DNA of 47,888 nt, counting the filler, from Jimgerdemannia flammicorona (lineage: Eukaryota): assembly GCA_003990765.1 (NCBI GenBank). It is 2 parts of 2 records of this genome, joined end to end, with 100 filler letters (N's around TTAATTAATTAA, not from the genome) between each part and the next. Parts side by side here need not be neighbours in the genome. Positions count along the whole stretch, not along the records: positions 23,997 to 47,888 come from RBNJ01001047.1; 1 more part is not named here. One strand, 5' to 3'. Within the stretch, counting starts at the first letter, position 1. Each line of letters opens with the position of its first letter. Of the stretch, positions 2,090-47,735 are shown piece by piece. The notes under the pieces were generated by a model, which was given only the letters and a program-made list of their open reading frames with translations, searched no databases and had not been told where the DNA came from. The translations under genes and the position numbers were made by a program.

Positions 2090-2497
2090 TGATGAGCCAA
2101 ATCCTTTGGATCCTCAGATGGTGGGCAGTAGTTCAGGGACTTCCTTGACTGTCAGGGTTGACTCGATTTTTTCGAATAGGATCTGGGTAATGCAGAAGCC
2201 AATAGAGATCTTGAAGGGTGTCCAATGGTAGTTTCGAATGAGGACAATGATTTCGCCTGTATAATCTTCGTCAATGACTCCTCCTTCTACTGAGAGTCCT
2301 ATCAGTGCTAGGCTGCTGCGACAGCATATTCTTCCAATGTGTCCTTCAGGGATTTGGATACTGATTCCTGTATAGACTTGTTTAACTTCTCAGTTAGAAA
2401 CTGTAGCTTCTTCGGCTGTATACAGATCATATCCAGCTGCTTTTTGACTTCCTTTGGTTGGGGCCTTAGCAGTTTGTCTTAACTTGACAAAGTCCAG
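2090..2497 (-). pseudogene. Trimeric dUTPase domain of Gypsy A, in frame with the Gag zinc knuckle
   Basis: All five dUTPase motifs are readable: AGYDL, RSSLA, GVIDEDYTGEI, (R>C)ITQI, (R>*)GSKGFGSS. Two TGA stops fall at likely CGA codons. Confidence 0.93.
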
Positions 2498-4416: not shown

Positions 4417-5003
4417 TCAGAGGTTGGGCTTTATACCAACTTGTAGGAATTCTCAGAAGGGTTTGTAGCGGGGTGAGGAAGTATCTTGAAGTGGAATTGG
4501 ATTGTAAACTGCTGCTACCAAGTTGTAAGAGGGTTACTTTTTAGGGTAACCATTATGTAGTCTGGAAAGGTTTTCTGGATATTCTGGATGTTCTGGAAGA
4601 CCTTTTTCTTATGGTCAAGATCAATTTCATATGGAGTACATCCTCTATGCTTATTGATTTCAAGATTGGGTTGACATCTCAACCAAAGTCCTTTCCCAGA
4701 CTAGTTCTGGATGTTCAGGATTTTCCGTATTTCAGGAAGTTCAAGAAACTAAGACTAGCTTAGTTGAATTGGCGTATCGCTGCAGACAATACCCAATTAG
4801 GAAATTTCGTGATGGGGTTAGGAGTGGGACCTAACAGGGAGCAGATTTACTTAAGAGTGGTTTGTGGGTTACGGAATAGGTTTATTTGCTATTCATAATA
4901 TTGCTATACTAGAAGTATTTGTGTGAAGGGATATTGTGGGGAAGTGCTCAGGAGTTGTGTTTGGATTGTTTAAGTCTGAGATTCTGAGGTCTGGTGGAGG
5001 GGG

Positions 5004-5011
5004 TATTTATA
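5004..5011 (-). promoter_or_regulatory. TATA box of Gypsy A LTR
   Basis: TATAAATACCCCTCC on the minus strand, about 120 nt upstream of AATAAA, as expected for a U3/R layout. Confidence 0.55.
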
Positions 5012-5200
5012 ATAGTGAGGGGCTATCTGGACTATGCTGAATATGGACATAGCACTAAGTGCCTTGCTGAGTCGGAATGCAGTCATGTAGTACAAGTGTG
5101 ATCTGATATGTCAAGAGATCGTCTGACTGCTAAGTCAGTTCACAGTCATGTCATACAAAGCTAATCTAACTATACTATGACTGCTAGACTATTTATGGGT

Positions 5201-6298
5201 TTAGGCGCTGTCTGGGTAGTCTTCGATAACATCACTATCAATGACATCATCTCTGATAAAGTAGTCATCTAGGAAGAGTGGTTCGCGGATTACTTATCCT
5301 TGTTCGCTGAGGTAGTAATACATTGGGACTTCGTCTCCATCCCACAGGATAGCATCATCTGTCTCATAGGCTGGATAAGATGTTGGTGGGCGAAGGATGG
5401 GTGTATTGTCTTCGCTTTCATCAGATTCACTGTCTGCGTACCTTCTATAGGTTATAGCACTATGAGTTACAGGATTGTAGTAAGCTGGCGGCTGTGGTTC
5501 ATGTCACTCATACTCAGGTGGTGGGGTTGTTGTTTCGATCTCAAGGGTTGTCTGGAGGTACAGGTTGTGTTCTCCAGTCTCTTCATTGTAATTGAAGTAA
5601 TCGGGGGTGAACACGGGTTGATATTCGTGCCAGTGGTCATTGTCCCAATAAGTCTCATATGCAGTTATGAACTGTTGCAAGTTCATTGGCAAGTTTGGCA
5701 GTGTGATTCAGGGTTGCAGAGATCCTTGGCTAGAGGTCATGTCAGCATCAGAGGGATCATTGTCTTCTGCTTCATCTTCATCGAAGTGAATTATATTGTA
5801 GACATCCTTCATGGCATATCTGACTTGAGGTATTTGCAGGATATGGTCATCAGGGTGTGGAAAGGTTCTGTCTGTGGTCTGGATGTATTCGAGGTACTTG
5901 TGGTTGAGTTCTTGTATCATGTTGTCGATTTGGCCATAGGACAGGGTAGCAACCATTTCACTGGTAGTAACACGGAGGCGGGGAATAAAGGTATTGTACT
6001 CATAGAAGAGTTCTTGATGTTTGCGGGCAATGAGCTTCTGGTGTTGAGACATCTGGGTAATGTCTGTATTGTGGTGGTGTTCGACCATATCTTCCAGGAG
6101 GTGGCCGATCTGGTAGTAGCTTGAGATTTGTCCGATTCGGTGGGCCTCGCTAAGTATGTTCAGGGCATTCCATCAGGCTTCCATGAAGTAGTGAGGTGCC
6201 AGACTATGGATATTCATGAGGGGCAGAGGGGGTGTGGCTCGGTAGACAATGGCATTCCAAATGTCAGCACGGATATGGTTGTAGATCTTGGTGGTCAT
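5201..6298 (-). pseudogene. Unknown accessory ORF (~366 codons) within the putative U3 of Gypsy A
   Basis: ORF-track pieces 6173..6355, 5708..6088 and 5504..5692 are in one frame and continue to TAA at 5201-5203. Breaks are three TGA and one TAA. A TATA-like run lies upstream at 6368-6381. Confidence 0.7.
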
Positions 6299-6586
6299 GT
6301 TTGTGTGTTTGGAAGTCGTGGTTGTTGTTTGTTTTGGTTCTCTGATTTGATGCATCTCGGTGCTCGGTATATATACATATAGTCCTGATTGGTAAGATTC
6401 TGTTTGTGTAAATCTTGTGTTCCATGACTTCGTATTGACTCAGCTTTGTATGCTGTGACTTCGGTTTGACTCAGCTTTGTGATCAAGCAGGTGATTTCCA
6501 GATTTATTCAGAGGTCATGTGTAATTTCGGTGGCTTATTCAGAGGGTGACATATAATTTCAGTGGCTTGGAGGTTGTGCGCTTACA

Positions 6587-8612: not shown

Positions 8613-9449
8613 TTACTCATTATTCCAATATATATAAGTATCTTTAGTATCAATATCTAAACTATTATCTTTATTTGAATCAGAGTTACTCTATTCAACA
8701 GATTCTTCTTTCTCTGAGAACAGGATTTTGATATAGTTGATGATACTTAAACAGATAATGGAATTTATTCCTTATATATAGATATCTCAGATAGCTGGCC
8801 ATATGGCCAATGGCTGGCCAGAGTGGCTTGGCCTTAAATTTACAGTCAACTAAACTTAAATTTAGTCTGGCCAGCTAGTCAATCTATAATTTAAGGCTGA
8901 GTCACTCTGTCTCAGCCTTAAATTTATAGCTAACTGATCAAGTGGTATTTATGAACCTTTTATTTAATTTGGAGAATTTGGAAATCAAAACAGCTAAATA
9001 AAGCCTAGCTATTTGATCAACTAGCCAATCTATAAATTTTAAGACTGAGTCACTCTGGCTAGCTATTTACTATATGGCCAGCTATCTGAGATCTTTACTT
9101 ATATATCACTCAGGAAGAACTATATCTATATCAGTGCTCTAGTCTTTCATTTATAGATAGTATATAGTCTGTCAGCAGTAATAGTGTTTTTTCAGATCAG
9201 GTCAGTGGAGTTTCTGATATAGATCAGGTCTGGAACTAGAAGATTCTACAACTGTTCTCTAATTACATAGTAAGCCTGCAGTTGGTAGACTTGTAGTAGG
9301 TATCTAGCCCAAGTGAGGTTCTTCTAATAGGTCTGAATTTATTGGAGAGAATTTTCATTAGCTTGGTAGAATTATGGTAAGAGAACTGAGAGAGATTAGA
9401 ATGAACTAAAGATAAGAGTCTGGAGATACTGATCAATTTTCTGATTTAT
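8613..9449 (-). pseudogene. Accessory ORF downstream of integrase in B1 (interrupted by the MITE)
   Basis: Translates (M>I)NQKIDQYLQT...QAYYVI(G>R)EQL...TADRLYTIYK...acidic tail. Homologous to 45667-46182. Confidence 0.7.
8779..9097. mobile_element. hAT-type MITE, 319 bp
   Basis: ~26-bp terminal inverted repeats (core ATCTCAGATAGCTGGCCATAT) and an 8-bp TSD CTTATATA at 8771-8778 and 9098-9105. It has subterminal repeats, and the empty site is present in B2 near 45831-45838. Confidence 0.9.
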
Positions 9450-23896: not shown

Positions 23897-23996
23897 NNNN
23901 NNNNNNNNNNNNNNNNNNNNNNNNNNNNNNNNNNNNNNNNTTAATTAATTAANNNNNNNNNNNNNNNNNNNNNNNNNNNNNNNNNNNNNNNNNNNN
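23897..23996. other. Assembly gap with TTAATTAATTAA linker
   Basis: N runs flank a 12-mer at 23941-23952 that gives stops in all six frames. Confidence 0.95.
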
Positions 23997-27209: not shown

Positions 27210-27576
27210 GGCTGGTGTTGCAAGCTACATGGTTAAAACCAAGGGCAGGTGCCATAAATCATGTGAAAGCCAAGAAGCTGATTTAATGAGCCCAGTGATC
27301 GAGGGATAGAACTGGTGTCATGAGTTGCACGGGGGTCTGAGTAGGCTGGTGTCGCGAGCTGCGTAATAACGAAAAGAAGGAGGGCTGGTGTTGTGAGCCA
27401 TACAATGTCAGAAAAGATTGGTATCGCGAACTACGTGGTGGCAAGAGGCTGAGGTGGGTGGATTAAAGGCTGGTGTTGCGAGCCACATGGTGATATAAGG
27501 CCGATGAGGAGAGGTAAAGGCTGGTGTTGTGTGCCATGCAGGACTCGGAATAAGCTAGTGTTGCAGGCTATGCGGT
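27210..27576. repeat. Array of ~8 spaced ~19-bp motifs (GGCTGGTGTYGYGAGCYAC-like)
   Basis: Copies near 27211, 27311, 27344, 27383, 27418, 27468, 27519 and 27554, with non-repeating purine-rich spacers. Confidence 0.75.
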
Positions 27577-27650
27577 AGAAAAAGAGGAATGGGAAATCAT
27601 TAACTATAAGTAATATGAGTAGCAGAGCAAGTATTACAAGTTAACGAAGC

Positions 27651-28664: not shown

Positions 28665-30165
28665 GGAAGATTAGCATGGGATAAAGCATCAGCAATGCCA
28701 TTATTGCATTAAGATGAATATGGTGCAAAGTCGAAAAGCATGATGTGCTATTTGAAAATAGTGCAGGTGGAGAAGTTCCAGCAGAAGAGGGTTGTGTGAA
28801 GAGCCAGAGTTGATAATAGTAATGACCACCTGATTATCAGAATGAAGCAATATATGGTGAAAACACTATTGAGCACCCCAGGTAGCAGCGGCAGTGACCA
28901 CAGTATAAAGTTCCTAGAACTGAATGTTGCATAAGGCTGTATCAGGAGGCCAGGGAGCGGAAAACCATTCATTATTGAAATGTGCACCAAAGCCCTGGAT
29001 CCTGCTGGCATCCATCTATAATTGTGCATCAGGCTCGTGGAACCATGCCACCAGATGTATAATGGAAATACTGTTCCAGTGGGGTAGGAATTCGAGCCAC
29101 CATTGAATGTTGGTGTAGAATTCCTCATTCAGTGAGATATGGAATGAGGCATTGCCAGATAGAAGATTGATAAACTGCTGCAGAAATGGGCAGCCCGGTG
29201 GAATGATTTTACAGGCAAATACCAAGGAACCAATAAGAGACTGCAGTTGAGGACGTGTACATAATGTGTGCAATAGTCACTGCTGAAGAGTGGCAAGCAA
29301 TGTGTCAAGCTTGCCAAGAGGCAGGCAGGCTTCCATAGCCATTGTATCCAATTCGATGCCCAGAAAGATGAGTAATGTTGTTGGGCCTTCGACCTTGTGC
29401 TCTTGAATCGACCAGCTGAGATGATGACAGATGGCAAGAAGTAAACATATGTCAGAGAGGGCAAACAGCCAGAACGGCGGTGAAATGAGGAGAAAATCAT
29501 CAACATAGTGGATGAGTGTGCATATGTCATGATGGTGGGCAATCTATATGAGAATTTCTGTGAAAAGGTTGAAAAGAAATGGTGATGTGGATGCACCAAA
29601 AGGAGCGAACTGTTCGAAATAAAACTACCCTGACCACTCAAAATCCAGCAACTCCCAATCCATAGGATGGATGAGAATATGACAATATACATTGGCAAGG
29701 TCAACCTTCGATAGAAGACATCCCTGGCCAAAATGACGAACCAAGTCCAAAGCCTCATTGAACTTAATGTAAGAGTGCTGGAAGGCATCGGTATCTATGC
29801 CAGTATTCACTGAATCGCTGTGATGGGGCAAAGAAAGGTCATGAATATGATGCCATGCACTATTAGATTCTTCTTCGCAATGGTGCCAAGAGGAGATGAG
29901 CGAAAGCATTTGAACAGAGAGGATGAGAACAGGCCACAAATTCCTCTGGTGGCGACTTCCCACTCAATGCAAGGAAAGCAGGGACATCCAGAAGATCTTT
30001 GATAAGGGATGGCGGCTTTTGAAGTATGATCTGAGCACCCAATTCATCAAATGTTTCAATGAATTGAGCATCAGGAAGACCACTGATAGAAATGACATTT
30101 CGCTCCAAGAAACAGCTGAGCGACATGGTGGTGAACGATTGTCGATGACTACGGCCAATAGCCAT
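28665..30165 (-). pseudogene. Ngaro RT-RNase H
   Basis: IHDLS, LSKVDLANVY, PFGASTSPFLFN, LIHYVDDFL, LQSLIGSLVFACKIIPPG, WWLEFLPHWNS, DASRIQGFGA, QELYTVV. Confidence 0.9.
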
Positions 30166-30169
30166 TGAT

Positions 30170-30857
30170 TAACATGGGCATATTTTAAAGAGAGATTGAT
30201 GCCTTGGACAACAGTATGGACAGAGATGACAGAAGGAGGTATAGGGATAGACTCACCCTGGGGATTACCAGCAGGGCTGTAAATGCTGGTCGACCAAACC
30301 AAAGAGAGAGTCAGTAAGGGCTGGGATGAGGATGGGGGTGTGAGAACTGCTAAAAGAGAGGCAGTAGCACAATTGATAAAGGCTTAATCGATGATGGAAG
30401 ATACATTCTGACCAGAAATGACAGGAACTATACTAGCTGATGCCACTAAAGATATGATGTTGGGGCGAGAGCATAAAAGCTGAAAAAGTTTGTCGAACCG
30501 ATGGTCTTGCATGGACGCATGCTCTTGGAGCTGAGCAATGCTGGCTTTGATGGAAACATCAGAGGCCGGTGTACAGAAAAAAGCTGGTCCAGCCACCATA
30601 GTGCTAGCGGGAGCCTTGGATGTGGCATGCACTGATAGATACGTGATTCAGCAGGGTGCGGAAGTAGAGTGATCAGGGAGGGTGGTGAGATAATCCATGA
30701 GGATAGCAATATCGGGATTCTCACTATCAGATTCCAGGTCGTCTTGCAGAAAGTGGAGCACATGCTCAATGAAATTAATGTCCGAGTGGAAAGGGCAGGT
30801 GGCAGAGCCCAGGTCATGTTGGCCCTTCGACATATGGGAAGGGTCGTATTGACACAA
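30170..30857 (-). pseudogene. Ngaro ORF1 (gag-like) remnant
   Basis: Positional only: minus-strand ORF pieces between repeat A1 and RT. Confidence 0.45.
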
Positions 30858-33800
30858 AAGGCAGGAATTTGTAGAGAGGACTATGGTAATATAATGAAAT
30901 GCATATGAATGTACAGAAGTACAAAAGCGTAAGTATAAAGTGCATATGAAGTAATGTTGGGTGAATAGTAGAATTATATATAGAAGTAATGTACATACTG
31001 TGCTAGTACCAAAAAAGGAAAGACTATGCCTGATTTAGAAATGCCTTAGACAAACAATGGTATTGAAACATTTTGGGTGCTATATGCCCAAGACCTTCTT
31101 ATATTCATTGACCTGTGGTCTCGAGTGAGCTCACTTATGGAATGAGAGACAGAATTGATGGGTTGGATGATTGGATGGAGATTGAGAGATTGAGTTCCTT
31201 AGTTAACTTATGGTGACAGTCTTGGGAGGATTACAGAATTTATACTCACTGGGTAGCAGGGCCGGGTTTCAGAAACAACTGGGTGTTGATGGTGGAGTAC
31301 TGGAGAGTGAATATCTGGGACACACTAGAGGTAGTTTGGTGCTCATTGTCAGATTACTGGGGTCTGATAGAGAGTGGGAGATTTGGGGGAAGTGGGGATG
31401 GGTCTGGACATTGGTGACTAAATTCTTCTTTATTGGAGGATGGTTCTCTATAGACAGACTGAGAGGTGGAAGCTATTGAGAAGATTAGTAGATAGTGAGA
31501 GCAGGGACTAGTAATTGGGGATTACTGGTAGAGGCTGAAATTGAGTGCTCAGAGGTACTAGAGGGAGACAGGGAAAGGAAGGAGCACTCAGCAGTAGTAG
31601 TAAGTATAATGGACTTCACAGAGATTGGCAGCACTCATGGAGAGGTAGGCAAGGTCACTAGAGAATTGGTGGGCAGCTGATTGGAGAATTCTGTGGATAC
31701 AAAAGGAAGTAGATGAGCTAATAAAAGTACTATATATGGAGGAAGTAGTTAAGCTGAAGGGGATAGTGGTGAAGTTGCAGTGGCAGGGATAGAGAAGAGA
31801 GAGAGGCCCACTAGATTTCTATCATAATTGCTCCAAGTGCAGAGAACTAAAGAGCAGTGGGATGGTATTTTGGATGAGAATAGAGAGATGGTAGTGGGGA
31901 CTTCTATAATTTTGGGATTGCTGAGAGCTCACTTGGGGAACTTGTAGAGTGATGAAGAGGGGGGTGAGGATGCCCTGAACATTAAGAGGCAGTTGGAGAA
32001 TTAGCATCTGGATGTAGTACTGGGTCTGAGAAAGCTGGGGGATCTGGTGTGTAGGGAGGAAGTGTGTAAAGTCTTGGCTTTAATATATAAGGAGATGGCT
32101 CAGGGAGAGGATGGGCTACCCTGTGATTTTTAGAAGAAGATGACTGTGGTGGCAGTGGTTCTGGAAGAAATGATAAAGATGTATGATGAGGTACTTAGAT
32201 CTGGAACTTAGATTGGGGGCCAGTACCTAGGGCTGGTCTCCTTACTCTATAAGGGAAGAAGGAAAGATTGGAAGAACTGGTGACTGATCATGCTCCTGGA
32301 CATAGACTATAAGCTGGTGACAAAGATCTTAGTAACTAGGCTGTAGAGGATTGATCAACAGGTTCTAGGAAAGGAGCAGAGGGGATTTGTTAGTGGTTGA
32401 ATAATCTGAGATAAAACTGTCTGGGTCTATGGAGTGATTGAAGAGGCTTAGACAGCTTGGGTTGATAGAAGGCTAGTATTCCTAGATCAGGAGGAGGCAT
32501 ATGACAGGATGAGGAGTGTCTGACTAGAGAGAGTGCTGAAATGTATGAGAGTTCCCCCAGAGTTCAAGAGGTCATTAATCAGTCTATTGAAGAATTTTCA
32601 AGCAGTACTGGTAGTGAATGAGTACAGGAGGGTGACTTTTCTACTAGGTCATGAGGTGCTGCAAGGGGATCCTTTGTCACCCATCCTTTATGTCCTTTTC
32701 TTGGAGCCCCTGTTGGACAGAATCTGATATCGAATTAGGAGTTTAGATATTTTGGAAATTAACTGGAACATTGAGGCTTTTGCAGACAACATGGTGGTTG
32801 GACTGGGTTCATTAGAGGATGTAGAGGAATTAAAGAGGATGGTGAAATGGTATAAGAGAGACTCAGCTACTCAACTCAACTAGTATAAATATGAGACTCT
32901 GGAGCTCAGTGGAGGTATAGTTAGCAGTGATGTGATTGGAACAGTAGTTCTGGCAGGAGAACCAATCTAGTACTTGGAGATATACTTTGCAGTATATGGG
33001 TCCCTTCAGCCCCATATATAGTAGGAATAGCAGCTACTTGTATGGAGGAATATTCTCCTGAGATGGGGTGGTGGCATATATCCTTGGCAGGAAGAGTGAT
33101 AGTACTGAATGTATATTGGCTACCAAAGCTGTAATATGTGGGGTATTATCTGGACTTCCTGATATGGGTGGTCAGGCAACTTTGGAAAATAGCAAGATTA
33201 TGGATTTGGGCTGGGAAGTTCTCACTCTGTCTGTGGAAAGATGTAGGCTGGGCTTGGTGAACTTTACCAAGTGCCTATATTACCTGAGAGTGTGATAGTG
33301 AAGAGGGCAAGTGAGTTGAGGGGTTGGGAGTGTGTGCCATATATGCAGAGGTTGTGAGAAGTATGGTATTCCCCTCATAGAGTATCTGGTGATCTGCTTG
33401 CAATAGTGGCCATAGATGGGAGCAGAAGGAAGCATTACAAAGGATTTTGGTGTAGAGTGGTGGATAGTGTAAGAAGAATTGGACTTCAGTAGAGAGATGA
33501 TGAGGGAAAGGAGGGCTGGTAACTCTAGATGTGGAGATGGAACTAGCTACTACTTGGAGGTATATTGGTGGAGGATTTTCAGCTTAGTGATGAAATGGAA
33601 TATATAAGGAGGCTCAGGGGGGACGTGTGGCCTGAATCATGAAATTGGTGAAGAGTGAGACTGGAATAGTATTTGGTCTTAGAGTAAGCAGGTGATGCAG
33701 TGGCTTTTCTCCAAGTTCTGGATGGTATGGTGGAGGTTCCTATGGCAGAATATGATGCTGAATTATCAGTCAGGATACTTGGCAGCAGATGGTACATTTG

Positions 33801-34396
33801 AGTGTGAGGAATGTATAAATGTTGGCCAGAGAGGGGACTGGTACAAATGCCTGAACATTGGCTAAGAGAGTGCAAAGTTTTGAGAGAGTTTTACCACAGT
33901 ATTACGAGCAGGCTGTAATTGTGGCCTCCTGTGTAGGGGGAAGGAGAGAGATGGTGAGATCTCTGGTAAAGGTTAGTGGGCAGAGTTGGGGATGAATGGC
34001 TGACTTTGGAATTAGCCCTGGTAATTTGGGTTGGGATGGCCAGACATTGGCTTCATATTTTTGAGGAGGGCCAGTGGGTTGAGGTTAGGGCTAGGGTAGC
34101 ATATTGGGAATGGTTGATGCTTAATATTTTGACTAAACATTGCTTTGTTCTGGACTATTTCAGAGTTAGTTTCTGCTATCCTGATAGCATTGGCATGCTT
34201 TATTTTGTCTTAAATATGGGTTTATATATGTGAATTTCCTTCTGTCTAAGATATATATGTATGAGACATTTTATGTAAAACATGGTAATAAAAGAACATC
34301 TCAACTCTCATTGAGTCCCTTAGCCATTTTGAAAGCTTGGTAGTTCACCTCTTCTCGCAACCCATAGAATCCTTTCTTATCACATTACTATAAGCA

Positions 34397-35408
34397 ATGA
34401 ACAACCCCTTCAACAACAACAGGCCACCTTGGCTGAGCACACTGAGTTCCTTCACCAGGTCACCGAGACTGTTGTGGTCAGCCTCTGCCCTCCTCTACCA
34501 GATCCAGAAGTCACAAACTGGTGTGACCAACAATTTCTCATCAATGCTCTTTTCCTTTGGTATTCCCAACATTCTGACCCTGCAGTCCTTAGACTTGATG
34601 GGAATCTCAATAGTATGGACCTCCATAATGATATCAACAGCAGTGATGATGAATTTCTCACAGCAGCCAAGTCTCAGGCCATTGGGAGATATTACATATC
34701 CCCCACATTCACTGATACTATTCCACCAGAATGCATCAAAGCACACCTCTTCTCTGCCAGTTTCAAGAAACTCCTCTGTTGAAACCCTGAACCCAAATGG
34801 AGTGTTCTGTGTACCCCCTCCATTGACAATGCATTCATGGATGATTTCAGCAAATCCACCAAAGAAGCAGACAAGGTTCTTGCTGACACCCAACAAGCTA
34901 TCTACAACACCCTCTGGCCCATTGCCATCACTCTCCAGGCCCTCAAACCTTGCTCTGATGGAGCTGATCTCCACCACTATGGGCTGGTCCATTATGCTGT
35001 AATTCTCCCTTTGGTGGAAAAACTGCAAGACTCTCTCCAGATCAGATTCCATGAAGTAGAATGTATCTATATATACTGCTACATCGAACTTGCCAAATCT
35101 GTGGGATAGTCACCTGCCCTCATCTCCACCTGCCACCAGTGGCTTCTGGCGCTGAGTATGATGGCAACCTGTTTGGTGCCAAATTCACCTGCCATTTTCA
35201 CAATGATGCCAAACACTGCAAGCACCTTCTCATGGTCAAGACAACCTCCAAACCAAGAGGTAATCCAACTCTGTCCCATGGCCCTGATGGTCATGGCCAG
35301 GGAAATGGGTCCTGGGGTGGCCACTGCTCTGACTACCGAAATTCTCAAAAACAGAGCTCTCAGAACCACACTCTGAGTACATATAGTCAAGGAGGTTCCC
35401 AGTACTGA
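34397..35408 (+). pseudogene. DIRS ORF1 (gag-like)
   Basis: Broken ORF after the left ITR: DKVLADTQQAIYNTLWPI, NLFGAKF. Confidence 0.6.
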
Positions 35409-35449
35409 GCTCCAAATCGGGACAACAGTACATTGACACCTACCACTCA

Positions 35450-37310
35450 ACTTTGAAGGATCAATTGATCTACAATACTATCACCCCCAAGACCTCGAAT
35501 ATAATCTCAAAGATGGGAGTAGAGTTAGTCCAGGTCTCTGAGACCGTTTGGATGACCCTGGGCATCAACTGCAGGGCCATCAATACAGCCCATGACAAGA
35601 ACTGCATTGAATGGTTACAACCCCTGACTCCACTCCAGACTGAACCCAGGTTCTCCTATAAGAAGGACATATCAGCAATAGAGAAGATATTGGTAGATAC
35701 TACCATCACCAAGTTCCAGGATAAGGAGGTCATCTATCCTGTCCAGAATGGGGAGCCACTCTTCTTCCCCAACATCTTCACAATCCTCCAGGTTAATAAG
35801 AACCAAGCCTGCCTTGATGCCCATTTGCTGAACAAGTTCGTGAGGTGATTGTACTTCAAGATGGAAGGTATCCAGACCCTATGCTATATGGTCTGGCTTG
35901 GCAACCACCTCATCAAGATTGACATAAAGGACGTCTATCTACATATTACCTTACACTCAGCCAATCAACAGTTCCTCACCTTTCAGTGGTGGAAGATCAA
36001 CTGGAAATTCTGTGCTATACCATTTGGCCTGTCATCTACTTTGCACATCTGAATGAAGATGATGGCTGTGGTTCTGGAGCCTCTCTGAGCAAGAGGCATC
36101 CAGCTCACCTATTACATCAATGACATATGTCTCCTGTTCTCTATGAGGAATAAAGTGCTCTGACAATAGAGGATCCTTTGTGACCATCTGGAGATATTGG
36201 GTTTTCTTCTACACCCATATGGGAACCCATGCAGCAACAGATGTTCCTGGGGTCCCTAGTTGATACCATCAATATGGAACTCCACTTACCCAAGGACAAG
36301 GTATGCAAGATCTGCAAGAAAACTACATCCCTCCTCTGCCTGATGATTGTAAATCTATACACAAGGTAGTATCACTGGTTGGTCTTTGCAACTCTATAGT
36401 ATAGGTGATCTTTCTGGCCTGGTTTTGAGTATGGTCCCTTATTTGGGACATCCAGGACTCCCTCAATGCCAACAACTATAACTGGAATGGTCTCATGTTC
36501 ATCTCTCCAACATCTGAAGAGGACCTCCATTGATGGTCCCTCAAGCTCTCCAGCTGGAATGGCCAGTCTCTACTTACTGAACACCCTGAGGTCACAGTTG
36601 ATATGGATGCCAGCAACCTAGGTTGGGGCTTCGAAATCATAGCTTCTATGTACACCAACTATGTGATGCAGCAAGTGATGGGCATTTGGACCCCTGTGGA
36701 ATGATACTGCTCCATCAACTACCATGAACTCAAGATTGTCCTGTTCATGCTCCAGACCAATAACTGCTATTGGGAGGGCCACATGGTCCTCATTTGGATG
36801 AACAACATATTTATGAGGGCTTTCATCAACAAGCTAGGGGGCTCACTCCTCCACCTGAATGAGATCACTACCAAGAGACACCACATCTGCACAATGAGGA
36901 GGATATGCCTCTTCGCTGAATACATCCCCAGAAACAAAAACACATGCACTGATTTTCTGAGCCACATCTACCCCAGCCCAGATGAATGTCAACTCTACCC
37001 AATGATATTCCATCATCTCCACCATTGGGGTCCCATATACCTAGACCTCTTTGCATCATGAACAATGACCCAGACCCCCCTTTTCTACAGCTGGTTGGCA
37101 GACCCTAAGGCCCTGGGCACCAATGCTTTCCAATATCAATGGCTGACCTCTAGTACTTATGTAAACCTGCTATAGATCCTCCTCAACCACACACTATGCA
37201 AGGTCAAGGAGAATAGGGGTACTTGCCTAGTCCTCATCATGCTGTTTTGGCAATGACAGAGTTAGTGGTCTGAACTCCTGGAAATGGCAACCACTCCTCC
37301 CATTCTCCTT
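35450..37310 (+). pseudogene. DIRS RT-RNase H-adenine methyltransferase-like ORF
   Basis: FKMEGIQTL, KIDIKDVYLHI, PFGLSS, YYINDI. RH DASNLGWG, INYHEL, YIPRNKNTCTDFLS. MT LDLFAS, FYSW..DP, NAFQYQW, YVN(PPW>LL*). Confidence 0.9.
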
Positions 37311-37379
37311 TCTTATCATTTCTTAATAATAATGACAATGATGATGATGATACAGATGATGCACTGGGATGCCCTGGTA

Positions 37380-38360
37380 TGGCAAATCAGCAACAATCCC
37401 CTGATACCACAGTACTGGCACTGCAGGTTCACAAACTCATCCAGGCCCGCATACAGATACCCTCATGCAAGAACTATGAGTCAGTATACCAACACTTTGT
37501 CCATTGGTGCCATCAACAATATATCAATCCCTTATGAGCTTCTATTGAGCAATGTACTAACAGCTTAGCTCAGCTTTTCAAGGAAGGGATGAGCATGCAT
37601 CAGCTTCAGAGCATCTATACTGCTATTAGCTGGTGGACCCCAATGATGAATGGTGTTCACTTCTCCAACCTTTTGACCATTTCCCATCTGATCTGGGGTG
37701 TTGTGAATCTTCAACCCCCTCTCTCAAAAGATAAGGCTGCCCAATGGGACATTGCTACCCTTATTCAGTGGCTAGCTTTCATAGGCCCCTATGACTCCAT
37801 CCAGCAACATGTACTCCACAGTGAGAAAACATGTGCTCTTCTTGCCCTATGTACCTCCTGGCAAGTGGTGAGTAATTTTGCAAAATGCCAGGCAACTGTC
37901 AGTTTTTGGGGTGATATCAGTGATTAGACTGCCAAAATGGTCCTAACTACTAACATGATAAAGAAATGCTCTCCCAATATTACCACCAAGATCTCTCATC
38001 CTATTTCAGCCCTCTTAGAGGACAAGAATATGTACTCTATATACTGGGTTTTCTGCTGGGCACATAAGATAGATCCCCTCTACCCATAGATAGACAGTGA
38101 CTATCTGTTCATCAGTATGTGCTCTCTCCATTACAACCTTACACCTGACTACCTTTGAAATTGGTTTTCCGAATGTATGGCAGTCACAGACATCAATCCA
38201 GTTCATTGCCCTTACTTCATTCAGGCCAAATCCTCCACAAAAGCCCTAGAAGAAGATATGCCCATTGATGAAGTCCTTGAGAGCAGCAATTGGAGTTCCA
38301 AAACTATATTTGAATGCCACTATCATCTACTATACCAGATGCCAGGGCTTTAACAATCTG
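37380..38360 (+). pseudogene. DIRS tyrosine recombinase
   Basis: WDIATLIQWL, KTCALLALCTSW, IQAKSSTKALEEDMPIDEVLESSNWSSKTIFECHYHL. Confidence 0.85.
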
Positions 38361-38464
38361 CTCAGGCCACTTCCCTCATTTACACAGTCCTCAAACATAA
38401 GAGTAAATTCATGGCTGTCAGCGCACCCCCACCCAGATGCTCTACTTGTATCAGATCTACAAAC

Positions 38465-38573
38465 AACCAACTCTGAAATGGTCCAGAATAAAGCAATGAT
38501 TAGTCCCTGATAGATGAGGTGCCATAGGTGCTAAAGTCTGTCCCAGACTTTACAAGCTTTGGGAGAACTGTGA
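38465..38573. repeat. DIRS internal complementary region (ICR)
   Basis: 38465-38503 is complementary to the left terminus (34133-34171). 38504-38573 is complementary to the right extension (38884-38953). Confidence 0.92.
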
Positions 38574-39387
38574 ACAGTTGGTTTCCCACCCATTTCTGAT
38601 CCTTTTTTTTCATTTTCTCTGGGTATAATTTATTTTTCTATTTTTCAGCTATGCTTTGCCAGCCAGTTTTTTCCTATATTTCTCTTCAGGTGTTCCTGGC
38701 TCACATGCCAAGCTTTCTAGGCTAAGGGACTCCATGGGAGTCAAGATGTTCTTTTATTACCATATTTTACATGAAATGTCCCATATATATATGTCTTAGA
38801 CAGAAGGAAATTTGCATATATAAACCCATGTTTCAGACAAAATAAAGCAAACCAATGCTTTCAGGATGGCAGAAACCAACTCTTCACAGTTCTCCCAAAG
38901 CTTATAAAGTCTGGGACAGACTTTGGCACCTATAGTGCCTCATCCATCTGGGAATAGTTAGTGGAGAGGGTGGGGACCAGTTGGGGGGAGATGTCAGAAT
39001 CTAGTAAATTTTATTTAAAAGAAGATAGAGAGTGAGTTCAGATGGTAGGTGGCTGAGTTATACTTCAGCAGAAAGAGATAGGTATTGGCTGAGAGGTTGT
39101 GGATACATATGTATTATTATTTATAGACTGAGTAATAATAAATGAGAGTCCAATTAACTATAAAAAAAAAAAAAAAAAAAAAAAAAAGTAATATGTTTTA
39201 GAAAAGCTACCAGCTCTACTGCCAGTTCTGCCAGTATAAAATCTACCACCAAATCTACCAACTCATCATCTATAAGTACTGCCAGCAGTGTAGATAGAAA
39301 AACTATCAACTATATATCTAGCTATATATCTGATATATAAGTATACTAATACAGTAATGACAACAATGTCTGGTTAATAGATTCTGG

Positions 39388-39903
39388 TCAATGTTTTTGC
39401 TGTAATATCGATCTACGCTAGGGAGGCGTAACTATACTATGTTTTGCATAATGTCAACTACGCTACGCTCACGTGATGTCAATCTTCATGATAAAACACC
39501 AATAACCCCGTGTCACCGAAATGACCATGCATCACCCCGAAATTCTAGGAAAGAAACCTCAAATAAATGATCGATTGTTCTGTATTTGGGTGGAAACACA
39601 TGGTATAAAAGACCGGCCCAACCACTATGTATATATATGTAGGGTGAGGTGGGTGGTAATGAAATGCATACGAATATACGGAAGTGCAAAAGCATAAGTG
39701 TAAAGCACGTACTAAGTAATGTTGGGTGAATAGTAGAATTACATATAGAAGTAATGCGCCTACTGCGCTAGTACCAAAAAAGGAAAGACTACGCCTGATT
39801 TAGACATGCCTTAGACAAACAACGGCGTTGAAACATTTTGGGTACTATACGCCCAAGACCTTCCTGCATTCATTGATCTGTGGTCTCGAGCGAGCCCCCT
39901 CAT
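39388..39903 (-). mobile_element. Solo Ngaro A-B repeat unit, 516 bp
   Basis: End-to-end homologue of 26277-26796 with the same termini (TCAATG...CCCTCAT). Removing it restores Copia GAT TCT GGA GCC ACA (DSGAT). Confidence 0.92.
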
Positions 39904-42900
39904 AGCCACATAGTATATGAGATTATACAGAGAATGATTCTCTACATATCAACTATTTGAGTACTCTGTACTCATTAATTTGGAAGATAATAATATCATC
40001 TATACTCAAGGAAAGAGAATTGTCAGCATACATCTCTGTAGAAATATCATTGAGTCTGCTGCAACTCTTGCAGATATACTATATACTCCAAAGATAGATA
40101 AGAACCTCTTCTATATAGCCAAAATGATAACCTATGACAACAAAGAGATATATATATATTCAAAGGACACAATAGTATATAATTTACATAATAATAAGAG
40201 ATTAAAAATATCCTCAAAATGTGGCAATCTTTAGATGATCAATAGTATATTAAGTAGTATAATAGCCTATATATATGCAATAACTATATCTGATGTATCT
40301 AATATATGGCATCAATACTTAGGATATATTGGCAAGATGTGCCTTAAATGTATAATAAGGAGTAGATCTATTAATAGATTACCATTACATATATACACAT
40401 ATTATAAATTCTTCTATAAGGATTATATGATAAATAAAGTATCTCAGTAACTATTCAAAGAATAATTAAAGTATATATCAGGAATCATCAATCTTAGGTA
40501 TATAGATATATATTGACTAATGCATATGTCATCATACTCTGGCAAGAGGGATGTTCTCATATTCATTGATAATTATATATATAAGGTATATATATTTCCT
40601 ATCATCTAAAAGCAAGTCCTTGGATATATTTATAGAATTCAAAGCAATCATTGAAAATGAAACTGAACATAGAATACATACTATATGATCAGATAATAGA
40701 CTTGAATATATCAATCAAGTATTCAAGTAGTTTCTAATAAAATATAATATAATCTATTAAATAATGGCTCCCTATATATCTCAGCAGAATATGTGGCTGA
40801 GCAATTTAACTATATGGCCATAGAAATATTATCTATGATGATCAATACTACTAGACTATTATATTCTTATTAGGCTGAAGTAATAAGTACTATAGTATAT
40901 ATATATAATTAGTGTATATCTCAATTGCTGAGCAGGAATACTGGCAATAATAATAAGCATTACAAAGAAGATGATCTTACCCCTGAAGAATTATAGAGCA
41001 AATCCAAACCTGATATATCTCATCTATATATCCTCAATAAAAGTAATGCTATCTGAGATAAATTTAAACCCAAGATGGGTAAGCAGATATTTCTTAAGTA
41101 TTCTGGCAAAGCACACTAGCTATAGGATCTATTCAAGTAGTATATAGTCATTTTGCATAATATATAGTTTAGAGAAAAGAGAAATAATTCAGAGATCTAT
41201 GTGGAAGTGCTGGTCAAAACTTCTACATCTCAGTTAGAGTAAATATAGCAACTAGTACATCTCTCATACACCTCTCTAGTATAAATCAATATTATTTTCA
41301 ACTGCTATATATATCTGAGCCTAAGCCAGAGATACCTGAACTAAGAATAATGGAGATCAAAGATAATGATAGTGAATCTTCTAATAACAAAGGATCCTCT
41401 ACCTCTATAAAGGATAAATAAGCATAAAAGTGCTCCACTATTTGTCAAGAAACTTATTTAGAATTGGGAAATTATTGGAATATACTAATATATCTCAATA
41501 ATAATATGAGGACTACATGAGCTATACCAAAGTATACAAATGCACAATGTTGTGATATCTTCTAGTAAGTCAACTATATATAATGAAGCTATAATCAATC
41601 CTGATAGCAAGAAATGGAAATAAGCAATAGATAAGAAATACAATTCTCTTCTTATAAATAGTATATAAGATTTGTATCTCTTCTATCTAATCATTAAGTA
41701 ATCAGATCCAAGTGGGTATATAGGATAAAATATAATACAAATAGTGATATAGAGTAGTATAAAGCTCATTTCATTGCTAAGAGTTATTTATAAGATTATG
41801 GTATAGGCTATGATGAGACATTTCACCAGTATTTAATCTGACTTTACTTAGAATACTCCTTGTGATCAGTATGTTATATGATCTAGAGATTTATCAGATG
41901 GATATTAAGATAGCCTTTCTGAATATTGATATAGATACTGAACTATATATTCATCAACTACAAGAATATAGACTATATGACAACCAGAATGATAAGCTCA
42001 ATATAAACTATACAAAGGATTATACTGTATTATGCAAGCAGTAAATCTTTGGAATAAAATAATTGATAAACATTCCCTTGACAATGGATTTAATTATTAC
42101 AAAGTAGATAATTGTATATACATCTATTATTATAACAATGGCAGAGTATTTATCAGTATTTGGGTTAATGATATCATTATTATAGTCAATCAGAATAGGC
42201 TTAATAGAGTAAAGGAAACTCTATACCAAGAATTTAAGATAACTGATATGAGTGATATATCCTTTCTTTTGGGGATATCTATCACATATGATAGGAATAT
42301 ATGTGCTATAAATCTCTTGCAAGAAAATTATATCAAGTTCATTCTTGAATACTTCAATACATATGAGTAATTGCAAGCCTATTGATATACTAATGAATAC
42401 TTCTGTGAAATTAAAGAAACCTAACAATATGTCAAAGAAAGATGATGATGATGTATCTACCAAGAACAGTACTGAAGATAATGATAACATTCCCTATCAA
42501 TATGTAATTAGTTCACTTATATATCTAATACTAGAAATAAGACCCAAAATATAATAAGGTGGCACAAGATTCCTCCTATTATATATAATAACTGTCATTA
42601 GAGTACTATTAAGAGAATTTTCAGATATCTTAAGAGTATAGTATACTATATACTTATCCTTAGTGGTATTGGATTAAGTGAGAGCAATAGTATCTAACTA
42701 TCTGACACTTATGATACCAATTAGATTAGAGACTTAGATGACTATCAATCTACACTAAGTATCTCTTTTATATTAGCAATCAAGAATCTAACATTTTATG
42801 GCAAATATATAAGCAGAGTTCCATAGCAATATCCTCAATACAGGCAGAGTACCAGATGTTATTATCAGTAATAAAGAAAGCTATATGACTCTATAAGCTT

Positions 42901-43405
42901 TTAAAGAAGCTTGGCTTTACTTAGAAGAACTCTATAGTAATCAGACAAGACCATCAATCTAAGATTATACTTATCAAGAATTCAGTACACTACAGCAGAA
43001 AGAAACATATTAATATACAGTACTATTTTATTTAAAAATGCATAACAAATAGTTCTATATAGTATCTGGAATTAACTCCTACAAAGTATATAACTACTGA
43101 TTTACTTACTAAAGCCCTTCTAAGGCAGAAGTTCAAGCAATGCACTAAAGGAATGGGTCTTATGATCACTATACTATATTCAGGTGACCAATAGATACTA
43201 TTTAAGCTGTTAAGAGTTTTGTACCATATATATATATTAGTTATATATGAATAACATAATATTGCATTTCTGCAGACATTACTATAAATATTTCAGATAT
43301 TTCAGAACAATGTTTGATCTGCAAAAATTCTTTAAACATAGGATTTTATATTTAGTATTTGGGTTATATATAGTTTTAGCTCTTTTTTTATATATATTAT
43401 ATATC

Positions 43406-43676: not shown

Positions 43677-45666
43677 TTATTAGTTTACATTTTATTCAAT
43701 TAAAAGATATTTTATGTAATTATTATATCAGAAAGTTTTTAATCAGTATACTTAGTTTGGTTGAATTTTAATAAATATTCATATAGAAATGGAAATTTTT
43801 GTCATAGATCTATATTTATTCATCTCTATCATTTGCTATCCACTACTTAACACTATTGCTCACTACTGCTCACTATTTCTGTAAACTATTTTCATTAATA
43901 TATTCCAGCAAAGTAATATTCACTTTTGATATAATACTCTAAGTATAAATGTCCAATATATCAAATTGGACTTTTGTTATTTATTTTATAAAGAATTATA
44001 TTATCTTATAATATACAAAATAGATAGTAAACTATTTACATAGGTGTTCAAAATTTAGATAATTATATCAGATAGAGTTTTGTTTTAGAATATAAGATAG
44101 ATGAGAGTATTCTACTATATACTATACTGTACCATTCACAATTACAATTATATATATAGGTATTCTACTATACTAGTTACTGAATTAATAAAGCTACTAA
44201 TTTAAAGATCTGATATCTAAGGCTATAATTTAGTAACTAATATATTTATAGTATATCATACCTGGCTTAATGGAGGCAAATTACAAGGTTAGAGACTAAT
44301 GTAGTTTGGCTTGAGCCCCCAGTTACTTTTTTAAAAGCAACAAAATATTCTTAGTATTTAGTAGTATAATATCACAACTGAGTATCTGCAAGTAATTTTC
44401 TTATTGAGATGGTTCTCTGGGTGTAGCAGCAATATGTGAATATGGTTTCTTCTTGGGTCAACTGGAAATTGGTACTATTTCCTGTATAGTATGAGTAGTT
44501 TCCTTATGCATAATGATCTGGCAATTTGGCAGTTCTCCTTATGTAATTTCTATATGATAATCTTGTATAGTATAATGATCTCTGTGTATGACAGTCTGGT
44601 GATTTAGCAGTTCTCCTTCTTGGATTGCAATCTTCAAAAGTATGTAAATTCTGGTAGATAGCTTGATTTGGGTACAGCTTCTCTGAAATAGTGGCTTACT
44701 GGGAATTATACTGGTGACAGATTCTTCTTGGGCTCACTGGGAACAATAAATAATTCAGAGGTCGCAGATTCTTCTTGAATCGGTGGGTTTCTGGGAATAA
44801 TAACTCAGGTGGCACAGATTCATCCTGAATTAGTGGGGTTTTCTGGGAATACAGATAACTCAGAAATGATGGCTTCAACTGGGAAACATGCTGGCAGCTT
44901 TTGGAAAAGGGTCTCTTGGCAAAGTTGCATCAAATACTGACTTTGTTTGCATGAATGAATTAATGCAAAGTTGTATCAGAAACTGGCTTAAGCAAGGTAG
45001 CTTTCTCTTAGGCAGCAGAAACCTGGGTTCTTCAGGCTTATCTGGCAAGTATACCAATAATAATAATTCCAAAGATAGTGAAGTTCTTTCTTGAACTTAG
45101 GCAGCAAACTCAAATTCTTCAGACTTAGTCTGGCAAGCATATCAAAAGCACAGCTAATTCCTTAAGTGGCAGATTTCTCTTCAAAAGGCAGTGAAGGTCT
45201 TTCTTGAACTTGGTGGCAAATCTTCAGACTTATCTAGTAAGCGAATCAAAAACAGACTCATTCTTAGTATCAGAAAGTGGACTGGAGTGGAGAAATAAGC
45301 TCACAATCTCCTAGCAGTAGCTATAGAGTTCCTCTCGAAGTATGGTAGGCAGACTTATCTTTTGTTTCAATTTCGGACTGAGGGTTATTCACTCTTATCT
45401 CTGGGGTAATTTATACAGTATATGGTTACTATGTTGCTAATTATAGATTACTATCTATGGTAAGTATGCAGGTCTTGCACAGATGTACAGATCTTGTACA
45501 AGTATACTAATCTTGTAATCTGGCTATTTATACAGCTTTCCACAGCAATGGTTGCTGGTTACTATGCTATGTATTCATATCATCTGGCTAAGTTATAATT
45601 CAGGTGATACATTTTGGTTTGTCATATCAGCCCCTACTAAAGGATGGTCTGTCCTCAGGCTATCCT

Positions 45667-46182
45667 TTAGTCATCATTATAGTGTGGGTAAGTATCTTCT
45701 GCATCAATATCTGTTCCATCATCTTCATCATCTATACCATTGTTGCTCCATTTCAGGAGTTCTTCTTCTTTCTCTAGAAATAGGATTTTGATAGCTTTGA
45801 TGATGCTTAGGTAGGTGGCCAAGTTCATTCTTTATATATTCCATCAGGAGAATTATACTTATAACAAGGCTGCAGGGTTATATTTGTAAAGGGAATAGAG
45901 CCTGTCTGCAGCAGTGACATCTCTTCTTGATTGTCCTGTAGTACTTCAGATATATATTTGTTCTGAGATGGGGAGGTTCTGCAATTGTTCTCCAATTGTA
46001 TAGTGGGCCTAAGGTTGGTGGACCTGTAGTAATTATCTGGCCAGAACAAGATTCTCTTGATGAATTGGAATTTTTTGGAGGGTAGTCTCATTGATTTCTC
46101 GAAATTGGGATAGAGAAACTGGCAGTGATTTAAATGAGCTGAGGACAACAGTCTGGAGATAGTTGTCAACTTTCTGATTCAT
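45667..46182 (-). pseudogene. Accessory ORF (172 codons) downstream of integrase in B2
   Basis: MNQKVDNYLQ...AHYTIGEQL...AADRLYSLYK...MNLATYLSIIKAI...DDEDDGTDIDAED. One frame, broken only by TAA/TAG/TGA. Its ATG overlaps the pol stop. Confidence 0.75.
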
Positions 46183-47735
46183 GATGTAGGGGAAGGTATA
46201 TCTTAAGGCAATTTATGTGTACTGGTGTCTTCAGGGTTCATTCATCCATGCTTCTTAAATAGATGCTAATTCCTCTGATGTTGTGTACAAAATAAGGTCC
46301 TTCCCATTTGAGTTCCAATTTGGCAGCAAAATTTGTTTCAATCATACTCCTCCAAACTAGTACTTGATCTCTAATCTTGATCTCCTAATCCTACTGTTTC
46401 TGGTTATAATACTACTTTGTCTTTCTTGGACTTTGATAATCTGACCTCAGGCTTGATTATGTAACTGTTCTGCTTCCTTGAGGAGGTCTCCAAGATTCTT
46501 ATGGTCAGCAGTTCTGGTTTTCTTAGCAGACATCATTTTGAATGACTTTTGTTTGGTGGAGGCAGCAGGGGTGTTCTGATTTTCCCATATGATCCAAAGT
46601 AAACAGAGGTCCCAATTGGTAGGATTGACTCAGGCAAGTTCTTTCTTGATGGTCTGGTTCAATCTTTCTATCATACCATTGGTCTGAGGGTGGTATGATG
46701 TGGTCTATTTGAGATAGATCTTGTGAATTCAAGCATTACTTGTGATTATGTTGTTGATGAATTCTGTGCCTCAGTCAGAGATTAGTTCTACTGGGGGCCC
46801 ATATCTGAGTGTGAGTCCATGTAGAAGGCCTACAATAGTTAAGGCATCTGTGATTTCTATTGGAAAAGCCTTGGGCCACTTGGTCAGATATTCTACAAAT
46901 ACAAGAATGTATTTGTTTCTTTTTGGTGTAACTGGTAGAGGTCCCATTATATCTATTTCCCATCTCTGAAAGATGTTGTCTGGTGGTGTGATTGGTTGCA
47001 ATAGTGCTTGATAGTTCTTCCTTTCTTTGTACTTCCGGCAGATGTGTATTGTTTGCATCTTTTCTTCTATATTCATCTGTCTCTGGTGGGCTTTCTGATG
47101 TTCTTTCTGGATGAGATCTTCTTGTGCCTTAATGACCTGAGAAGCTTCCTTTAGGGTATAGTTCCTCAGGACACCCTCCTTCTGGTTTATTGGGGCTAGT
47201 GAGAAAGTATATCAACATTGTTGTGAGCTTTTCCTGCTTTGTGAATGATGGTGATTTTGTAATCCTGAAGAATAAGGATCCAGCAGGCTAGGATTCTGGT
47301 GGATTCCTTACAGTTGAATAGCTATTTGAGAGCTGTATGGTCTGTGATCAGGATGAACCTTTTTCTGATAAAGTAATGCTTGAACAGAGTGACCACTCAT
47401 ATGACTGTAAGGCATTCTAGTTTAGTGTTACCATAGTTCATCTACTGCTGATTGGTAGCTCTGCTTGCATAAGCTATCACATAGTGTTGTTGATCAGGCC
47501 CTTCTTGGGCTAGAACTACTCTGAGACCATCTTTTGAAACATCTATATATAAGTTGAATGGCTTCTGTAGGTTGGGGTACATAAGGAGTAGTACTGTAGT
47601 CATATAGTTCTTGAGTTCTTTGAAGGCTTTTCTTGTGATTCCGTTTATTTGAATGGTACTCCTTTCTTGAGAAGGATTCAGATTGGGGCAGCAATTTAGG
47701 CAAAATCTTTAATAAACCTTCTATAGTAGGATGAC
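46166..47735 (-). pseudogene. pol: Gypsy B2 pol (RNase H, integrase with GPY/F)
   Basis: SYYRRFIKDFA, ITDHTAL, WEIDIMGPLP, YILVFVEYLTKWPKAFP, YGPPVELISD, KLELKWEGPY. Confidence 0.92.

What the first reader, a model, noticed from the sequence alone, without database searches (positions are those of the whole stretch)
45667..46182. Post-integrase ORF in Gypsy family B that appears related to the family A LTR ORF
Seen: both B copies (8613-9449 and 45667-46182) keep a ~172-codon frame whose start overlaps the pol stop and which ends just before the PPT. By eye, B AHYTIGEQL...AADRLYSLYK...NI*RMNLATYLSII aligns with A SYYQIGHLL...IARKHQELFYE...MVATLSYGQIDNMI, and both are followed by an acidic tail. 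There is no hydrophobic transmembrane segment, so it is not env-like, and it is not a chromodomain. Inference: a shared, uncharacterised small helical accessory protein in two divergent dUTPase-bearing Gypsy lineages, moved between the 3' internal region and U3. It could be a transactivator or anti-silencing factor. This is my best candidate for an undescribed system.
Basis: partly seen in the sequence, partly recalled or inferred. Interest (0 to 1): 0.8.

Follow-up and report, generated by a model that had tools for sequence, protein, structure and literature searches.

The report
Shared accessory gene of Gypsy retrotransposons
A small extra gene behind the integrase of a Gypsy-type jumping element is real, was kept by selection, and is a distant relative of genes that other such elements carry inside or just before their terminal repeats; its acidic tail suggests a switch that turns the element on, but that is untested.

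Summary
The frame at 45667-46182 (-) is a real 171-codon gene. It is dead here (7 stops), but 26 of 150 scored genomic matches have no stop, and transversion-only pN/pS between two subfamilies is 0.23 (other frames 0.75-3.1). Directly, kinship with the family A LTR ORF is weak (BLASTP E 0.29, HHalign 6-9%). Two further carriers found here (C inside an LTR, D between integrase and PPT) bridge it: four families align almost without gaps over ~135 residues, and held-out profiles beat 5000 of 5000 shuffles. No Pfam family matches. Naturally open A, B and most C copies end in a tail passing a published acidic activation-domain rule (0 of 61 gag/pol controls; D fails). Best guess: a Tas-like transactivator (0.4); anti-silencing or RNA-export roles remain open. 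Corrections: the A ORF is 365-400 aa; copy B1 carries a ~320-bp insertion and lacks the ATG; the window's start overlaps integrase by 17 nt, while a younger subfamily has an AUGA stop/start. Family B also encodes integrase as a separate AUGA-coupled frame. The scan noted both features before on other pieces of this genome.

The parts
45667..46182 (-). Family B accessory ORF, copy B2 (171 codons, 7 internal stops, dead copy)
45778..46182 (-). Shared helical domain, codons 1-135
   Evidence: alignment A3
45670..45777 (-). Acidic, aromatic-studded tail, codons 136-171 (in an open copy 15 D/E, 0 K/R); activation-domain-like by composition
46166..46182 (-). 17-nt overlap of ORF start with the integrase end (integrase stop 46166-46168); AUGA overlap in the younger subfamily
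46166..47190 (-). Family B integrase (decayed), in its own frame; no chromodomain-like tail
47187..47190 (-). RNase H stop / integrase start junction, ATAA here, ATGA in most copies
45625..45640 (-). Polypurine tract of B2
44243..45624 (-). 3' LTR of B2 (approximate, about 1.3 kb; its 5' boundary rests on one independent copy)
8613..9449 (-). Family B ORF, copy B1, more decayed, ATA start
8774..9091 (.). Insertion with inverted ends inside the B1 ORF (approximate)
   Evidence: (I14)
4527..6585 (-). Family A 5' LTR (about 2.06 kb)
   Evidence: alignment starts and ends pile up at both boundaries
5201..6298 (-). Family A LTR-borne ORF (365 codons from the conserved Met; broken here, open in other copies)
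2111..2470 (-). Family A dUTPase (PF00692, E 3e-27)

Best explanation
The ORF is a third, element-encoded accessory gene of a non-chromo Ty3/Gypsy family. It belongs to one unclassified family: a ~135-residue helical domain plus an acidic, aromatic-rich tail, carried by at least four retroelement units of this genome in three positions (SHOWN: gene, selection, positions; WELL SUPPORTED: homology). In family B it has no TATA box of its own and is most likely translated from the genomic RNA by termination-reinitiation after integrase; D and C have a conserved TATA upstream and probably make their own mRNA (INFERRED). Most likely job (INFERRED): a nuclear transactivator in the manner of foamy-virus Tas. 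The helical domain tethers it to the element's LTR, directly or through a host factor, and the acidic tail recruits coactivators, raising transcription against methylation-type silencing.
For: Open copies: 26 of 150 scored matches without a stop. Transversion-only pN/pS 0.23 between subfamilies, against 0.75, 3.1 and 0.79 in the two other frames and antisense; only 1.8 of ~30 transversion differences fall at codon position 2; the tail itself 0.14. Relatives in metagenomes at 58-82% identity, two seen directly after integrase. Homology: A->B 4 of 5000 shuffles reach the median score, B->A 5, ACD->B 0, BCD->A 0; in 1.85 million residues of six-frame DNA the ACD profile's best hits outside its training families are B ORFs (13.4 bits; reversed decoys 5.1); near gap-free alignment with invariant Y-x-I-G-x-x-L; same helix order in both models. 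Tail: rule of PMC10550315 passed by 15 of 16 open B, 10 of 10 A, 8 of 13 C sequences, 0 of 61 gag/pol ORFs. Start stays at the integrase stop while the frame relation differs (-1 in 15 of 17 young copies, +1 in 40 of 47 others), which fits re-initiation and not a frameshift fusion. TATA 72-74 nt upstream in D (28 of 28 have it), 13 of 14 in C, 0 of 16 and 1 of 25 in B. Family CpG o/e 0.03-0.07.
Against: No functional data. The helical domain is not basic (B 11 K+R to 8 D+E; A 9 to 15), unlike a usual DNA-binding domain. D fails the full activation-domain rule (0 of 7), and the rule was made for human transcription factors; any very acidic tail with a few aromatics passes. Direct A-B similarity is weak (E 0.29; HHalign 6-9%; 12-19% identity); C->B and D->B alone are not convincing (93 and 144 of 5000). 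Shuffles destroy helical periodicity and so flatter the result. Both models are low confidence (pLDDT 56 and 48). No stable RNA structure precedes the integrase/ORF junction (z -1.0 to +2.0 in 16 copies). A has no clear TATA within 130 nt of its conserved Met (3 of 29).
Confidence: 0.4

Rival explanations
1. Anti-silencing or host-adaptor protein: the acidic-aromatic tail is a short binding motif or nucleic-acid mimic that engages a host silencing, repair or degradation factor (works like VANC or Vpr-type accessory proteins) rather than a coactivator.
For: Strong CpG loss in these elements; tail under purifying selection; accessory TE proteins counteract silencing (PMC13547354 passages); the core is not basic.
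Against: No sequence link to any such family. Copies still decay heavily, so any protection is partial. Tail length varies from 36 to 230 residues.
Confidence: 0.25
2. RNA-handling factor like Cer1 CERV or Rev: the helical domain oligomerises on genomic RNA and promotes export, translation re-initiation or packaging.
For: Precedent in a Ty3/gypsy element (PMC10309623 abstract); family B has an unusual four-frame RNA that may need such help.
Against: No arginine-rich stretch; net acidic protein. Families A and D have ordinary pol frames where seen (for D), yet keep the gene.
Confidence: 0.15
3. Particle or integration cofactor made in step with integrase, for example a targeting or chaperone subunit replacing a chromodomain.
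For: In B the start is tied to the integrase stop in two geometries; B integrase ends without a chromodomain-like tail.
Against: A and D integrases carry a chromodomain-like tail (label recalled, not scanned) and also the ORF; in A and C it sits in the LTR, uncoupled from pol.
Confidence: 0.1
4. B and A ORFs are both real genes but unrelated; the likeness is helical periodicity plus an acidic tail.
For: BLASTP E 0.29; HHalign 6-9%; C->B and D->B weak.
Against: Tests used the domain without the tail; reversed sequences keep periodicity and score lower (maximum 6.3 and 5.0 against medians 9.2 and 9.9); held-out joint profiles 0 of 5000; collinear from residue 1; same place in the element.
Confidence: 0.08

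Closest known systems
Sense additional ORFs between pol and the 3' LTR (aORF-3S; review PMC7264820, abstract and section 4 read)
   Same: Sense strand, after pol, before the PPT, present in most copies.
   Different: Those described there are mostly env-like with transmembrane segments and spliced mRNA. This one has no hydrophobic segment, and its relatives also lie wholly inside LTRs.
Fungal Gypsy elements with dUTPase and an 'additional ORF of unknown function' (PMC2864245, passages read; supplements not opened)
   Same: dUTPase at variable places, including between PR and RT as in family B; additional ORFs are noted in a figure legend.
   Different: No protein family, shared domain or LTR-borne form in the passages seen; integrase is part of Pol there.
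Foamy-virus Bel1/Tas (PMC517496, passages read)
   Same: Accessory gene of a retroelement, C-terminal acidic activation domain, internal promoter (as family D appears to have). Its 3' position is recalled.
   Different: No sequence match; DNA binding and response elements not shown here; a functional analogy only.
Bdelloid ORF3s shared between unrelated retroelements (PMC5408684, abstract read)
   Same: One accessory module shared by divergent, partly dUTPase-bearing LTR lineages.
   Different: Those are recognisable enzymes or env proteins (GDSL esterase, DEDDy exonuclease); this is an unclassified helical domain.
CERV of C. elegans Cer1 (PMC10309623, abstract read)
   Same: Novel non-env accessory protein of an LTR retrotransposon.
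   Different: Made from a spliced mRNA and acts in RNA export; no evidence of relatedness.
Victorivirus AUGA stop/restart and SART1 UAAUG coupling (PMC13013214 and PMC10275272, passages read)
   Same: AUGA overlap at the RNase H/integrase junction and, in the younger subfamily, at the integrase/ORF junction; a hairpin precedes the first.
   Different: Here in an LTR element and twice in a row; the window's subfamily has a 17-nt overlap instead; no structure found before the second junction; untested.

Membership tests
Sense additional ORF (aORF-3S) | Sense ORF between pol and the 3' LTR | tested here: met
Sense additional ORF (aORF-3S) | Kept across copies and under selection | tested here: met
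env-like ORF | Transmembrane segment | tested here: not met
   max 19-residue Kyte-Doolittle mean 0.95 (B), 0.86 (A), 0.75 (D), 0.48 (C)
env-like ORF | Spliced subgenomic mRNA | not testable with these tools
   needs RNA reads
Chromodomain of chromoviruses | Chromo profile match, fused in frame to integrase | tested here: not met
   no Pfam family at E<=1 for the B ORF; separate frame
Foamy-virus Tas-type transactivator | C-terminal acidic activation domain | tested here: inconclusive
   composition rule passed by B 15 of 16, A 10 of 10, C 8 of 13, D 0 of 7, controls 0 of 61; activity not measured
Foamy-virus Tas-type transactivator | Binds response elements in LTR and internal promoter | not testable with these tools
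   core not basic
Foamy-virus Tas-type transactivator | Expressed from an internal promoter | tested here: inconclusive
   TATA conserved in D 28 of 28 and C 13 of 14, absent in B; no start-site data
Foamy-virus Tas-type transactivator | Sequence homology to Bel1/Tas | tested here: inconclusive
   no Pfam family matched; not compared with Tas directly
Victorivirus-type AUGA stop/restart (integrase/ORF junction) | AUGA with UGA ending the upstream frame | tested here: inconclusive
   met in 15 of 17 young copies and L141; not met in the window's subfamily (17-nt overlap in 38 of 47)
Victorivirus-type AUGA stop/restart (integrase/ORF junction) | Pseudoknot just upstream | tested here: inconclusive
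   no stable nested fold (z -1.0 to +2.0, 16 copies); pseudoknots not modelled
CERV/Rev-type RNA export factor | Binds and exports unspliced genomic RNA | not testable with these tools
   no assay

The most novel reading that the evidence does not exclude
A retrotransposon transactivator family, a counterpart of foamy-virus Tas outside retroviruses, that travels as a module: translationally coupled behind integrase in one lineage (whose RNA has four frames: gag-PR-dUTPase, -1 frameshift, RT-RNase H, AUGA, integrase, AUGA or short overlap, accessory ORF), on its own internal promoter in a second, and wholly inside the LTR in two more, so that every solo LTR is a complete activator gene.
Probability: 0.3. 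Interest if true: 0.78.

Novelty: new variant of a known kind. Interest (0 to 1): 0.55.

Why it matters
Non-env accessory genes of LTR retrotransposons are mostly unexplained. One family here is conserved across lineages whose integrases are only about 28% identical, and occurs in three positions with apparently different ways of expression. If it is an activator or anti-silencing factor, it would help explain how these elements reached high copy numbers under heavy CpG decay, and LTR-borne copies could act in trans. The tail and the junctions can be tested with simple reporters.

Tried and rejected
Direct A-B BLASTP and pairwise HHalign of shallow profiles: not significant; only C-D is strong (99.8%). 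Pfam: nothing for A, B, C or D (two single-member hits at E 0.11 and 0.24 taken as chance). ESM Atlas: best scores 0.90 and 0.89 with few shared features, no lead. Profile search of 1.84 billion representatives with the B alignment: 5 hits, all B-like. Word-seeded searches with the A domain and with the four-family alignment among longer proteins: no hits; weak evidence by the tool's own note. Solved-structure sequences: best E 0.013 to ATP synthase subunit b, a long helix, rejected. Fold searches on low-confidence models: B best Z 4.9, rmsd 5.4, 105 aligned; A best Z 11.2, rmsd 3.0, 118 aligned, to a designed four-helix bundle; viral library none at E<=0.001; a generic helical arrangement only. 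Viral contigs and phage records: none. No RNA holder was listed. PF00665 search returned Copia-type elements in the rows seen. I first read the junction as AUGA in all copies from a 4-mer count; the frame check showed that this holds only for the younger subfamily. I first tied the C ORF to the integrase of L212; boundary mapping showed that it lies in another LTR whose internal region I did not identify. The C and D leave-out rows are confounded by cross-labelling and are not used. The hairpin after the slippery site is no stabler than shuffles (z 0.36). No complex prediction was run.

Full report
Setting. The window is a pile of decayed retroelements across two contigs (gap near 23897). CpG is almost gone in family B (o/e 0.03-0.07) and partly kept in A (0.31). 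The host was not established. The element types fit a fungus, and earlier scan notes say so; I did not test it.

Observation. 45667-46182 (-) is one frame of 171 codons with 7 stops. A protein search of the genome scored 150 of 1579 candidates; all 150 matched and 26 have no stop. They fall into the window's older subfamily and a younger one, about 60% identical to the window copy. Among gap-free full-length copies that I fetched (52 of 64 distinct ones), 11 of 17 young and 2 of 35 older copies are open in this frame and none in the other two frames; the young ones were picked partly for having few stops, so that count is biased. Copy B1 has a ~320-bp insertion, an ATA start and 10 stops in 120 codons. 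The ORF ends just before the PPT; the LTR start rests on one independent boundary.

Selection. Decay here makes transitions, so I counted transversions only. Young against older copies: pN/pS 0.23 in the ORF frame (about 13.5 synonymous and 14.8 non-synonymous differences per pair), 0.75 and 3.1 in the other frames, 0.79 antisense, 0.14 in the tail; older against older 0.41. The pairs are not independent: this is largely one branch. Seven metagenomic proteins match at 58-82%, and two metagenomic contigs show the ORF directly after integrase. The gene is therefore not peculiar to this assembly.

Family A. Its LTR spans about 2.06 kb (34 alignment starts and 39 ends at the boundaries) and holds an ORF that is naturally open for 365-400 aa. 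Both A and B carry dUTPase, A after the Gag zinc knuckle and B between PR and RT.

Is B related to A? Directly the signal is weak: BLASTP E 0.29, HHalign 6-9%. I then read what follows integrase in 19 other Gypsy loci and saw similar ORFs in three of them, which define two more carriers: D, between integrase and PPT, and C, inside an LTR. I chose them by position and by eye. Using only naturally stop-free domain segments without tails, the number of 5000 shuffles reaching the real median was: A->B 4, B->A 5, CD->A 1, CD->B 16, ACD->B 0, BCD->A 0, AB->C 1, AB->D 3, C->A 5, D->A 36, C->B 93, D->B 144. Reversed sequences scored below the real medians in the A-B and joint tests. Against 1.85 million residues of six-frame DNA, the ACD profile hit 68 of 87 B stretches at 3 bits or more (best 13.4, median 6.5); the best unlabelled hit (8.6) is an A fragment, the next 4.1, reversed decoys 5.1. 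The BCD profile hit 65 of 69 A stretches (best 21.9, median 16; decoys 7.4). Both models give the same helix order but are low confidence. I put homology at about 0.9. B is the most distant member. B and D integrases are 28% identical, A and B RT 43%.

Expression. In the window's subfamily the ATG lies 14 nt before the integrase stop in the +1 frame (38 of 47 non-young copies; 2 more have an earlier stop; 4 are -1, one of them the metagenomic L141; 3 had no motif). In the young subfamily the two overlap as AUGA in the -1 frame (15 of 17; 2 no motif). A start that stays at the stop while the frame flips fits termination-reinitiation better than a frameshift fusion. AUGA coupling is known from victoriviruses and UAAUG from SART1 (PMC13013214, PMC10275272; passages). 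No stable fold precedes this junction, which counts against a victorivirus-type signal. B has no upstream TATA (0 of 16, 1 of 25), D has TATAAATA in 28 of 28 (72-74 nt upstream in 27), C has TATAAAAG in 13 of 14, A 3 of 29. Family B also splits pol: gag-PR-dUTPase, a G GGA AAC/AAT slippery site in frame (seen in L142 and 3 of 5 young copies), RT-RNase H, then integrase in its own frame with ATGA at the junction (11 of 12 young copies by motif; 7 of 11 by strict frame check, the rest decayed), preceded by a hairpin (z <= -2 in 8 of 11 copies, 1 of 55 control windows). I noted this before I looked it up; earlier scan notes report the split integrase too.

Function. All four proteins have an acidic tail with scattered aromatic and leucine residues. 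The rule of PMC10550315 (passages) is passed by 15 of 16 open B sequences, 10 of 10 A, 8 of 13 C, 0 of 7 D and 0 of 61 gag/pol ORFs (D passed only looser variants). Foamy-virus Tas is an acidic-class activator with a C-terminal activation domain and an internal promoter (PMC517496, passages). With the LTR location in two carriers, this makes a transactivator my best guess (0.4). The core is not basic, the rule is compositional and made for human factors, and nothing was assayed. Anti-silencing adaptor (0.25), RNA factor (0.15), integrase cofactor (0.1) and non-homology (0.08) remain.

Known or new. The class is known: sense additional ORFs (PMC7264820, abstract and section 4), fungal Gypsy elements with dUTPase and unexplained ORFs (PMC2864245, passages; its supplementary tables, not opened, could list relatives), shared ORF3 modules (PMC5408684, abstract), CERV (PMC10309623, abstract), TE accessory proteins (PMC13547354, passages). 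The B ORF meets the aORF-3S definition and fails env-like and chromodomain tests. No Pfam family matches. Literature searches (listings only) showed no paper describing this family, an LTR-borne form of it, or a Gypsy integrase coupled by AUGA; the library lacks most subscription papers. The scan itself noted the shared ORF on other pieces of this genome, with verdicts from 'shared domain' to 'unproven'; my homology figures come from my own tests.

Verdict. A real, selected, unclassified accessory gene family in a known class, with an unusual spread of positions and likely modes of expression; function inferred only. Interest 0.55.

Noticed in passing
window 47187-47190 (-); L142:2791-2794; young copies L091-L110: Family B integrase is a separate frame whose ATG overlaps the RNase H stop (ATGA), with a hairpin just upstream (z <= -2 in 8 of 11 copies, 1 of 55 controls). 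Candidate termination-reinitiation signal, possibly as notable as the ORF.
   Followed up: partly
L142:1322-1328; L094, L108, L110: In-frame slippery heptamer G GGA AAC/AAT where gag-PR-dUTPase passes to RT in the -1 frame; the stem 7 nt downstream is no stabler than shuffles. The frameshift falls after PR and dUTPase, not after gag.
   Followed up: partly
L211, L223-L252 (family D): The internal ORF has TATAAATA about 73 nt upstream in 28 of 28 copies; the same TATAAATACCC motif stands in the D LTR and the A LTR (window about 5000-5010), suggesting a dedicated internal promoter.
   Followed up: partly
L212:~2098-2497: A very common Gypsy family with a short (about 400 bp) LTR shows no such ORF after integrase in the copies read, so the gene is not universal here.
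   Followed up: partly
window 8774-9091: Small element with inverted ends inserted in the B1 ORF; the frame is kept by chance.
   Followed up: no
window 4511-4520 (-); L099:~8050: Primer-binding-site-like TGGTAGCAGC a few bases after the LTR end, shared by family A and the element in L099; the tRNA was not identified.
   Followed up: no
window 12000-16300, 18000-34000, 34160-38900, 39900-43300: Other decayed retroelements: LINE-like copies, an element bounded by inverted repeats (I4, I20) and a Copia-like relic. Labels by eye from ORF pieces, not scanned.
   Followed up: no
window 1-6500 against the rest: CpG o/e 0.31 in family A against 0.02-0.07 elsewhere: A is younger or less methylated.
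   Followed up: no
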